A stretch of 64,000 bases of DNA, from NCBI RefSeq assembly GCF_003018115.1, contig NZ_CP027457.1; one strand, 5' to 3'. This DNA comes from Escherichia coli. Its GTDB lineage: Bacteria; Pseudomonadota; Gammaproteobacteria; Enterobacterales; Enterobacteriaceae. This document shows positions 5,387 to 6,351 of this stretch, one piece after another. A model generated the notes under the pieces. That model did not search any database. It saw nothing but the letters and a program-made list of their open reading frames with translations, and was not told the origin of the DNA. A program made the translations under genes and the position numbers. How positions within the stretch are numbered: position 1 is the stretch's first letter; each line of letters starts with the position of its first letter.

Positions 5387-5433
5387 CAGACAAAAAGATG
5401 GGGGACCATCACCTCCCCCATGAACTGCGTTGA

Positions 5434-5697
5434 TTATGTCATTATTGTGAAGATATACACTATGCCGGGTAAATAGTGCCACGGAAAAGTTAATTCCGGA
5501 AGTGACGGAACTCTCATTTTTCGTGCATCCTGTTGATATGGATGATTTTTCAGATTTTCGGAAGTCCGTATTTTTTCCCAGACATTTTGAAGCGTTTGCT
5601 TAATGAACGTATGTGCAGGCTCTTTATCTACGGCTCTTAAAATTGAGAGTCTATCATTGCTGGAGCCTGTGACAATTACGTCCAGGAAGAACTGCAT
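5434..5697 (-). CDS. Hypothetical small protein (87 aa), prophage accessory ORF
   Basis: Track ORF bracketed by two hairpins (5398-5421 downstream with a T-run on the - strand; 5757-5785 upstream); weak RBS; no recognisable family. Confidence 0.25.
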   Translation of the reverse strand: MQFFLDVIVTGSSNDRLSILRAVDKEPAHTFIKQTLQNVWEKIRTSENLKNHPYQQDARKMRVPSLPELTFPWHYLPGIVYIFTIMT

Positions 5698-5794
5698 AAC
5701 CTGGATGATTTACGCTCAATCAGAGAGAGGGCGATTAGCGGCAATCACGCTTGATAAAATTAACCCCAGTGATCATCCGGGGTTTTGCAATCAT

Positions 5795-6351
5795 TAAAAC
5801 CGCATCAACCGTTCTACCAGTTGTTCTTTACGGGCAACGATCCAGTCGTGTTGCTCCAGATAAAAACCGTTCCAGAGTGCATACCATCGCATCGGCGGGG
5901 ATTTTTTCCGTGAATTCGACCTGCCCGTGTTTATCGAGGTGGATCAGTAATGCGTATCCATCATTTTGGGTTGGGGGGGTTTGTGCTGCTGGTGGCTGTT
6001 TTTGGCTGAAATAACAGTCTTCGAGTTTTTCGAACACTTCCCACGCCTGAACGGTTTCCAGCATTTTTGCGTGGCGTGCTGCTCCGCGTTCTGTCCATAG
6101 GGTGAGGGGCGGGCTTTGGGAGATATGGGGTTTTGTGACTTACTTAAAGTAAGTCGCAAATTTTTTAATTCTTCACCCGATGCTTTAAAAAAGTGCTTTC
6201 CTTCGACAAAACGCTCTTTGTTTCTGGTGAAGTTAACCTAGATATTCAGAATTTCGGTGCCATAAAGCTGCACCAAAAGTTCGGTGGTAATAACAGGAAT
6301 CTGGTTATGGGTGAACGGGGAGATGGTTTCAACAGAGATTTGAGTTGTCAT
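5795..6351 (-). pseudogene. ORF6N/antirepressor-like prophage gene, disrupted by one in-frame TAG and two frameshifts
   Basis: ATG at 6351 with gaggg RBS gives MTTQISVETISPFTHNQIPVITTELLVQLYGTEILNI, then TAG (6238-6240), then NFTRNKERFVEGKHFFKASGEELKNL in the same frame; LTLWTERGAARHAKMLETVQAWEVFEKLEDCYF continues in a second frame after the G4T4 run (6127-6134); WIVARKEQLVERLMRF in a third frame after the A5 run (5863-5867). Confidence 0.55.

What the first reader, a model, noticed from the sequence alone, without database searches (positions are those of the whole stretch)
5398..5795. Small unknown ORF bracketed by two hairpins between the tail module and the antirepressor remnant
An 87-codon ORF on the - strand (5434..5697) is flanked upstream by a hairpin at 5757-5785 (aacccc...ggggtt with a T-run) and downstream by an 8-bp-stem hairpin at 5398-5421 followed by a T-run on the - strand. 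That is the architecture of an independently terminated accessory gene. The protein has no family I recognise and the RBS is weak, so it may instead be non-coding or a further remnant.
Basis: seen in the sequence. Interest (0 to 1): 0.35.

Follow-up and report, generated by a model that had tools for sequence, protein, structure and literature searches.

The report
Chimeric pseudo-ORF from prophage gene remnants
The 87-codon ORF is not an accessory gene: deletions at the decayed right end of an E. coli lambdoid prophage joined three unrelated leftovers into one open frame, and the two hairpins are the terminators of neighbouring or lost genes.

Summary

The window is an E. coli chromosome. The ORF sits at the right end of a lambdoid prophage inserted in ompW. 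It is a three-part chimera:
- **Codons 1-5**, including the ATG, are the antisense of a 3' fragment of a second DUF4376 tail-fibre-assembly gene (5684-5757, +).
- **Codons 6-41** are an internal fragment of a DinI-like gene. They are 65% identical to residues 38-74 of an intact 82-aa DinI-like protein. The N-terminal half, the C-terminal ADDWF tip and the LexA-box promoter are missing.
- **Codons 42-87** are the last 7 codons of a YkgJ-family gene read out of frame, followed by that gene's non-coding 3' UTR.

The closest relatives lack the ORF. One has 268 extra bp at the first junction. Another has two stop codons at the second junction. A third has an indel and a stop in the tail. Variants give 11 non-synonymous to 4 synonymous changes, which fits neutrality. 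RefSeq never annotates the ORF and calls the same DinI piece a pseudogene in a sister genome. No promoter, RNA family or wider protein family was found. Ordinary; low interest.

The parts
4715..5386 (+). Intact tail-fibre-assembly gene (DUF4376 / Caudo_TAP), the last intact gene of the tail module (context)
   Evidence: Pfam DUF4376 at 6.5e-17. RefSeq annotation in the identical genome.
5398..5421 (-). Intrinsic-terminator hairpin (8-bp stem, 8-nt loop, U-run on the - strand). It is the native terminator of the ykgJ-family/dinI-like unit and lies between it and the convergent tail-fibre-assembly gene.
   Evidence: Terminator scan and fold at -16.2 kcal/mol. It is found at the same place downstream of an intact ykgJ-family gene in L004 and of dinI plus a ykgJ fragment in L003. 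Most variants fall in the loop.
5422..5549 (-). 3' untranslated region of the ykgJ-family gene. It is non-coding in relatives and supplies codons 50-87 and the stop of the 87-codon ORF.
   Evidence: Alignment to L004, where the intact YkgJ-family CDS stops at the equivalent of 5550-5552. In L004 the ORF's frame is broken here by a 1-bp indel and a stop.
5550..5573 (-). Last 7 codons plus stop (KYGLPKI*) of a YkgJ-family CxxCxxCC gene. The 87-codon ORF reads them one base out of frame, so the stop is skipped.
   Evidence: window - frame 2 gives ...KKYGLPKI*, against ...AKYGLPEI* in L004. Codon table.
5575..5682 (-). Internal fragment of a DinI-like gene (ORF codons 6-41, equivalent to residues 39-74 of an 82-aa DinI-like protein). 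It lacks the N-terminal half, the C-terminal ADDWF tip, the stop codon and the promoter.
   Evidence: BLASTP: 24/37 identical, E = 7e-17 to WP_001261927. PHROG 189 DinI, E = 0.011. Pfam DinI sub-threshold, profile positions 25-57 of 63. tblastn to phage dinI genes. RefSeq calls the same piece 'DinI-like family protein, missing N-terminus and C-terminus' in L008.
5684..5757 (+). 3' fragment (about 23 codons, ...LHNLDDLRSIRERAISGNHA*, TGA at 5752-5754) of a second DUF4376 tail-fibre-assembly gene. Its antisense strand supplies the ORF's ATG (5695-5697) and codons 1-5.
   Evidence: 94% DNA identity to the 3' end of DUF4376 pseudogenes next to Rha/ORF6N genes in many genomes. The longer L008 fragment hits tail-fibre PHROGs 7703 and 1141 at 4e-12 and 1e-10.
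5762..5784 (.). Hairpin between the DUF4376 3' fragment (+) and the convergent ORF6N/Rha antirepressor gene (-, stop at 5794-5796). It is the terminator of those genes, not a signal of the small ORF.
   Evidence: It is conserved in the same tfa-to-Rha/ORF6N intergenic position in L006, L007 and L008, with a perfect 8-bp stem in L006 and wobble variants elsewhere.
5434..5697 (-). The 87-codon chimeric ORF itself (the finding), judged to be a fortuitous reading frame
5794..6351 (-). ORF6N-domain antirepressor pseudogene with an internal stop and at least two frameshifts (context)
   Evidence: RefSeq annotation of the identical genome. Comparison with the intact 186-aa allele of L007.

Best explanation
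The 87-codon ORF is a fortuitous, non-functional reading frame. Successive deletions in the decaying accessory region at the right end of a lambdoid prophage integrated in ompW created it. One deletion of about 111 bp removed the last 8 codons and the stop of a dinI-like gene, together with most of an adjacent ykgJ-family fragment. The dinI frame now runs, out of frame, through the last 7 ykgJ codons and on through the ykgJ 3' UTR. An older event had already removed the dinI 5' half and its SOS promoter. A final 268-bp deletion brought the dinI fragment up against the antisense of a DUF4376 tail-fibre-assembly 3' fragment, which happens to provide an in-frame ATG. The two hairpins are terminators inherited with other genes. 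The one at 5398-5421 ends the ykgJ/dinI unit, convergent with the tail-fibre-assembly gene. The one at 5762-5784 lies between the lost second tail-fibre-assembly gene and the convergent ORF6N/Rha antirepressor. Shown: segment homologies, junction positions, absence of the ORF in relatives, and a substitution pattern that fits neutrality. Inferred: the order of the deletion events and the lack of expression.
For: The three segments match independently in other genomes and phages, with sharp boundaries at about 5574 and 5684.

Segment identities:
- DinI fragment: and the RefSeq pseudogene call in L008.
- ykgJ tail and 3' UTR.
- DUF4376 3' fragment.

Relatives lack the ORF:
- L008 has 268 bp (not a multiple of 3) between the ATG-bearing piece and the DinI piece.
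- L003 has an intact dinI with its own stop, plus a second stop before the tail.
- L004 has a 1-bp indel and a stop in the tail.

Polymorphism is 11 non-synonymous to 4 synonymous changes, pN/pS about 0.76. This is indistinguishable from neutral (p = 0.55) and unlikely under omega of 0.2 or less (p = 0.015 or less).

No promoter-like site lies upstream of the ATG; the only one is inside the ORF. No LexA box lies nearby, whereas L003 has CTGT-N8-ACAG boxes upstream of its intact dinI (sequence). The RBS is weak.

The protein is known only from two E. coli clusters and has no Pfam domain. RefSeq does not annotate it in any of the 59 complete genomes that carry the region. No Rfam family lies in 5387-5800.
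Against: The ORF is intact, with no frameshift or stop, in all 47 complete genomes that carry the exact arrangement, across several serotypes. These copies are 98.6-100% identical, so this says little. Older GenBank annotations call it a hypothetical protein. The retained DinI part includes most of the C-terminal helix. No expression data were available, so lack of transcription and translation is inferred.
Confidence: 0.9

Rival explanations
1. It is a real, newly formed fusion gene. A truncated DinI-like peptide (beta2-beta3-alpha2) with a novel 46-residue tail ending in a hydrophobic stretch (PGIVYIFTIMT) is expressed at a low level and modulates RecA/SOS or has some other function.
For: The ORF is uninterrupted in all 47 exact carriers. 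It retains 36 DinI-homologous residues at 65% identity. A terminator follows it.
Against: - No promoter lies upstream and a terminator sits directly upstream.
- The RBS is weak.
- The DinI N-terminal half and the acidic ADDWF tip are missing. The role of that tip in RecA binding is from my own knowledge of DinI and was not tested here.
- The tail is translated 3' UTR that is frame-broken in relatives.
- The substitution pattern fits neutrality.
- The ATG comes from the antisense of another gene only after a 268-bp deletion.
Confidence: 0.05
2. The region makes a non-coding RNA: a 3'-end-derived sRNA ending at the 5398-5421 terminator. [quoted passage not shown]
For: The 128-nt stretch between the ykgJ stop and a strong terminator is well conserved as DNA in many prophages (92-99% identity). 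DinR shows that dinI 3' ends can yield Hfq-dependent sRNAs.
Against: - No Rfam hit in 5387-5800, even at E up to 1.
- The only promoter-like site is a weak 9/12 match inside the ORF.
- The SOS promoter of dinI is deleted here.
- The 3' UTR belongs to ykgJ, not to dinI.
- DinR is described as specific to the Klebsiella chromosomal dinI.
- No covariation analysis was possible because the copies are nearly identical.
Confidence: 0.04
3. The ORF is the displaced C-terminal part of the neighbouring antirepressor pseudogene.
For: It lies directly downstream, on the same strand, of the frameshifted ORF6N gene.
Against: The intact 186-aa ORF6N allele in RM10042 and two other genomes ends at the equivalent of 5794, while the ORF region there is 98.6-100% identical to the window. 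A terminator hairpin separates the two. The ORF matches DinI, not antirepressor families.
Confidence: 0.01

Closest known systems
DinI family (Pfam PF06183; E. coli DinI, PDB 1GHH/7YWA; prophage 'DinI-like family protein', e.g. WP_001261927)
   Same: ORF residues 5-41 are 65% identical to residues 38-74 of an intact prophage DinI-like protein. That protein matches Pfam DinI at 3.7e-17 and E. coli DinI 1GHH at 1.7e-10. The fragment sits in the same genomic niche as intact copies: the far right end of a lambdoid prophage, opposite in orientation to the tail-fibre genes.
   Different: Only about 45% of the domain is left. The region aligned to residues 1-37 is gone, the last 8 residues (TADDWFIH) and the stop are gone, and the LexA-box promoter is gone. 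It scores 14-17 bits against a Pfam cut-off of 24.2. It is a pseudogene fragment, not a family member in the functional sense.
YkgJ-family cysteine-cluster protein (Pfam PF03692 CxxCxxCC), prophage accessory gene such as WP_022581964
   Same: The DNA from the terminator 5398-5421 up to 5573 is collinear and 92-99% identical with the 3' UTR and last 7 codons of this gene in other prophages.
   Different: None of the Cys cluster is present. The 7 remaining codons are read in the wrong frame by the ORF.
Phage 'moron' (independently transcribed accessory gene with its own promoter and terminator at the end of a late operon)
   Same: Location beyond the tail-fibre genes, opposite orientation, and a terminator downstream. 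The intact ancestors (dinI-like, ykgJ-family) fit this description.
   Different: There is no promoter and no conserved coding sequence. The upstream hairpin is the terminator of a neighbouring gene.

Membership tests
DinI family (PF06183) | Significant sequence homology to DinI proteins | tested here: met
   BLASTP 24/37 identical, E = 7e-17 against an intact DinI-like protein. tblastn hits to annotated phage dinI genes. PHROG 189, E = 0.011.
DinI family (PF06183) | Complete domain of about 80 aa reaching the Pfam gathering score | tested here: not met
   No Pfam hit for the 87-aa ORF at E up to 1. The isolated fragment scores 14.0 bits against a cut-off of 24.2 and covers profile positions 25-57 of 63.
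DinI family (PF06183) | C-terminal acidic helix tip (...ADDWF), which I recall as the RecA-binding surface | tested here: not met
   The alignment stops at ...NVWE. TADDWFIH is replaced by out-of-frame ykgJ sequence. The RecA-binding role is from my own knowledge, not from a tool result.
DinI family (PF06183) | SOS (LexA-box) promoter upstream | tested here: not met
   No CTGT-N8-ACAG match (up to 1 mismatch) between 3320 and 6766. The intact relative L003 has two such boxes upstream of dinI (sequence).
YkgJ family / CxxCxxCC (PF03692) | Cysteine-cluster domain | tested here: not met
   Only the last 7 codons remain, out of frame with the ORF. No Pfam hit.
Independent accessory gene (moron) | Own promoter upstream of the ORF | tested here: not met
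   The only sigma-70-like site in 5000-6600 lies inside the ORF (5675-5648, -). The count does not exceed that in shuffles.
Independent accessory gene (moron) | Coding sequence conserved as protein in related prophages | tested here: not met
   The ORF is absent or broken in L008, L003 and L004. pN/pS is about 0.76 and not different from 1. Only two E. coli-only protein clusters exist.
Rho-independent terminator | GC-rich stem-loop followed by a U-run | tested here: met
   Both hairpins pass the terminator scan on the - strand. Folds are -16.2 and -13.5 kcal/mol. Termination activity itself was not tested.

The most novel reading that the evidence does not exclude
The deletion-made fusion could be a very young de novo gene. 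A half-DinI peptide with a new tail translated from former 3' UTR, fixed in a lineage of ompW-inserted prophages of LEE-negative STEC (O91, O113, O104:H21, O178, O22), might act on RecA or the membrane.
Probability: 0.04. Interest if true: 0.4.

Novelty: already known. Interest (0 to 1): 0.07.

Why it matters
It matters little biologically. It is a worked example of how mosaic decay at prophage ends creates plausible-looking 'hypothetical protein' ORFs flanked by genuine terminators. Such ORFs enter databases: this one is in two E. coli-only clusters. For annotation, 5387-5800 should be labelled as dinI-like, ykgJ-family and DUF4376 pseudogene fragments, not as a gene. If the unlikely fusion-gene reading were true, it would be a dated example of gene birth from a pseudogene plus a 3' UTR.

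Tried and rejected
- **Pfam on the 87-aa ORF and overlapping ORFs:** no family.
- **Search of the 5.8-billion-protein database:** only two E. coli clusters, both of the ORF itself.
- **PDB sequence search:** the only hit was a tau-repeat construct, 6cvj_D, with per-domain E above 100. Rejected as spurious.
- **Rfam at E up to 1:** nothing in 5387-5800.
- **LexA-box search:** none near the ORF.
- **Antirepressor C-terminus hypothesis:** rejected, because the intact ORF6N allele stops at 5794.
- **NCBIfam scan:** failed on a coordinate error and was not repeated, so nothing is claimed from it.
- **Upstream frame in L008 (LPDFVKVFFILQCLIPSFIDHFIKNRE):** checked as a possible DinI N-terminus. The profile matches start only at NVDVIV, so it is not one.
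- **Structure prediction:** not attempted. A chimera of a half-domain plus translated UTR would give an uninformative model.

Full report
**Context.** The window is an E. coli chromosome. The 1-kb stretch around the finding is 100% identical to isolate 07-4299 (NZ_CP027462) and 99-100% identical to 28 other complete genomes, mostly LEE-negative STEC. RefSeq annotation of the identical genome gives this order: gpJ, Ail/Lom, a tail fibre, a DUF4376 tail-fibre-assembly gene (window 4715-5386), an unannotated gap, a frameshifted ORF6N-domain gene (window 5794-6351, -), a 3' fragment of ompW, then yciE, yciF, yciG and trpA.

**Observation.**
- The 87-codon ATG ORF at 5434..5697 (-) exists.
- The downstream hairpin at 5398-5421 has an 8-bp stem and an 8-nt loop, followed on the - strand by CTTTTTGT.
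- Both hairpins pass a terminator-like scan on the - strand. They fold at -16.2 and -13.5 kcal/mol.
- The RBS is weak: AGG lies 2 nt from the ATG.
- An 87-codon ORF is unremarkable here. Many ORFs of 89-232 aa lie out of frame or antisense inside annotated genes between 3000 and 9000. The window has 84 ATG-ORFs of at least 87 aa.

**Anatomy of the ORF.** DNA searches split 5387-5800 into three segments that occur separately elsewhere, with sharp boundaries at about 5574 and 5684.

*Segment 1 (5387-5573).* This is 92-99% identical to the sequence downstream of a 109-aa YkgJ-family CxxCxxCC gene. In other prophages that gene is intact and convergent with the same tail-fibre-assembly gene (L004). 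The window keeps only its last 7 codons and stop (KYGLPKI*, 5550-5573), its 128-nt 3' UTR and its terminator at 5398-5421. The 87-codon ORF reads the 7 codons one base out of frame. It therefore skips the stop and carries on through the UTR. ORF codons 42-87 are thus translated non-coding DNA.

*Segment 2 (5575-5682).* This is an internal piece of a dinI-like gene.
- ORF residues 5-41 are 24/37 identical (E = 7e-17) to residues 38-74 of an intact 82-aa DinI-like protein in L003.
- That protein matches Pfam DinI at 3.7e-17 and E. coli DinI (PDB 1GHH) at 1.7e-10.
- tblastn also hits annotated dinI genes of Stx and other lambdoid phages.
- PHROG 189 (DinI) matches residues 6-42.
- Pfam DinI matches the isolated fragment below threshold, at profile positions 25-57 of 63.
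- The N-terminal 37 residues, the last 8 residues (TADDWFIH) and the stop are missing.

*Segment 3 (5684-5800).* This is 94% identical to the intergenic region between a DUF4376 pseudogene and a Rha or ORF6N antirepressor in many ompW-site prophages.
- On the + strand, 5684-5757 encodes the last 23 or so codons of a second DUF4376 tail-fibre-assembly gene (...LHNLDDLRSIRERAISGNHA*).
- RefSeq annotates the longer version as a DUF4376 pseudogene in L006 and L008.
- The longer fragment hits tail-fibre PHROGs at 4e-12 and 1e-10.
- The ORF's ATG (5695-5697) is the antisense of a His codon of this fragment.

**How the ORF arose (inferred from comparisons).**
- L003 and phage 1720a-02 carry an intact dinI followed by a 34-codon ykgJ fragment. 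Their dinI frame meets its own stop and a second stop before the UTR-derived stretch. Relative to them, the window lineage lost about 111 bp, a multiple of 3. This fused dinI codon 74 to the ykgJ tail at a short run of A/T.
- L008 (strain 2013C-3181 and 11 similar genomes) has the same dinI fragment and the same ykgJ junction. It also has 268 extra bp between the dinI fragment and the DUF4376 fragment. RefSeq labels that dinI piece 'DinI-like family protein, incomplete, missing N-terminus and C-terminus'.
- The 268 bp resemble (76-82% identity) the prophage arm that normally abuts attR/ompW' in L011 and in the window at 6687-6800. This suggests two prophage right ends once lay in tandem.
- The window type arose by deletion of those 268 bp, which is not a multiple of 3. 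Only then did the antisense ATG come into frame with the dinI fragment.

**The hairpins.** Each has an owner other than the ORF.
- **5398-5421** sits in the same position downstream of the intact ykgJ-family gene (L004) and of dinI plus the ykgJ fragment (L003). It faces the stop of the tail-fibre-assembly gene. Most variants among carriers fall in the loop.
- **5762-5784** lies 5-8 nt after the stop of the DUF4376 fragment (+) and 10 nt after the stop of the ORF6N gene (-, 5794-5796). It is conserved at that position next to intact Rha and ORF6N genes in L006, L007 and L008, with a perfect 8-bp stem in L006 and wobble variants elsewhere.
- For the ORF, the second hairpin is a terminator immediately upstream. 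It would block read-through from the antirepressor unit.

**Tests of coding function.**
- *Expression signals.* No promoter-like site lies between the upstream hairpin and the ATG. The only hit in 5000-6600 is a 9/12 match inside the ORF, and the count does not exceed that in shuffles. No LexA box lies nearby. L003 has CTGTGGTTATATACAG and CTGTATGGATAACCAG upstream of its intact dinI.
- *Conservation as protein.* The ORF does not exist in L008, L003 or L004. Nine window-type carriers were examined, three of them identical to the window across 5387-5800. Together with L008 they yield 11 non-synonymous and 4 synonymous differences and no in-ORF indels. With 204.7 N sites and 56.3 S sites, pN/pS is about 0.76. 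This is not different from neutral (p = 0.55) and is improbable if omega is 0.2 or less (p = 0.015 or less). The sample is small because the copies are 98.6-100% identical.
- *Distribution.* The protein occurs only in two 90%-identity clusters, all E. coli, with no Pfam domain. No sequenced phage carries the full arrangement.
- *Annotation.* RefSeq leaves the ORF unannotated in every carrier inspected.
- *RNA.* No Rfam family hits 5387-5800 at E up to 1.

**Rivals.**
- *Young fusion gene.* This cannot be excluded without expression data. It lacks a promoter, has a poor RBS, and lacks the DinI parts needed for folding and, from prior knowledge of DinI, for RecA binding.
- *3'-end-derived sRNA.* This would resemble DinR of Klebsiella, which is cut from dinI mRNA (PMC10907235). 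It is conceivable for the conserved ykgJ 3' UTR. However, the UTR is not dinI's, the SOS promoter is deleted, and there is no supporting signal.
- *Displaced antirepressor C-terminus.* This is refuted, because intact ORF6N alleles end at 5794 next to an identical ORF region.

**Verdict.** The sequence features are real, but the 'gene' is a recombination and deletion scar made of dinI-like, ykgJ-family and DUF4376 fragments. Both hairpins are terminators of other genes. This is ordinary prophage-end decay, and public annotation of sister genomes already recognises part of it.

Noticed in passing
window 6387-6602 (- strand): Upstream of the frameshifted ORF6N antirepressor gene, Rfam finds isrK (6513-6589, 60.4 bits), C4 antisense RNA (6404-6487, 61.6 bits) and a sub-threshold c4-a1b1 target (6550-6602). 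This looks like a P1/P7 immI-like, RNA-controlled antirepressor module. Its RNA genes look intact although the ant ORF is a pseudogene.
   Followed up: partly
L008 2806-2990 (E. coli 2013C-3181); compare window 6687-6800 and L011 2660-2790: Sister genomes carry a 268-bp internal copy (76-82% identity) of the prophage arm that normally abuts attR/ompW'. It lies between the dinI fragment and the DUF4376 fragment. This suggests two prophage right ends once lay in tandem at ompW and later collapsed by deletion.
   Followed up: partly
window 5794-6351 (-): The ORF6N gene is intact (186 aa) in some carriers (RM10042, 2014C-3097, 2014C-3307) and frameshifted in the window and others. The two alleles differ strongly in the 5' two-thirds, while the adjacent 414 bp are identical. 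This points to allele replacement by recombination.
   Followed up: partly
window 5422-5549: The ykgJ-family gene has an unusually long (128-nt) 3' UTR before its terminator, well conserved as DNA across many prophages. No function was found for it.
   Followed up: no
window 3459-4646 (+): The tail-fibre protein contains a long collagen-like Gly-X-Y repeat tract. Its length varies between related prophages: annotated CDS lengths are 1188, 1269, 1728 and 1932 bp.
   Followed up: no
window 6809-6934 (+): A 3' fragment of ompW (...YRF*) marks attR of the prophage. yciE, yciF, yciG and trpA follow.
   Followed up: no
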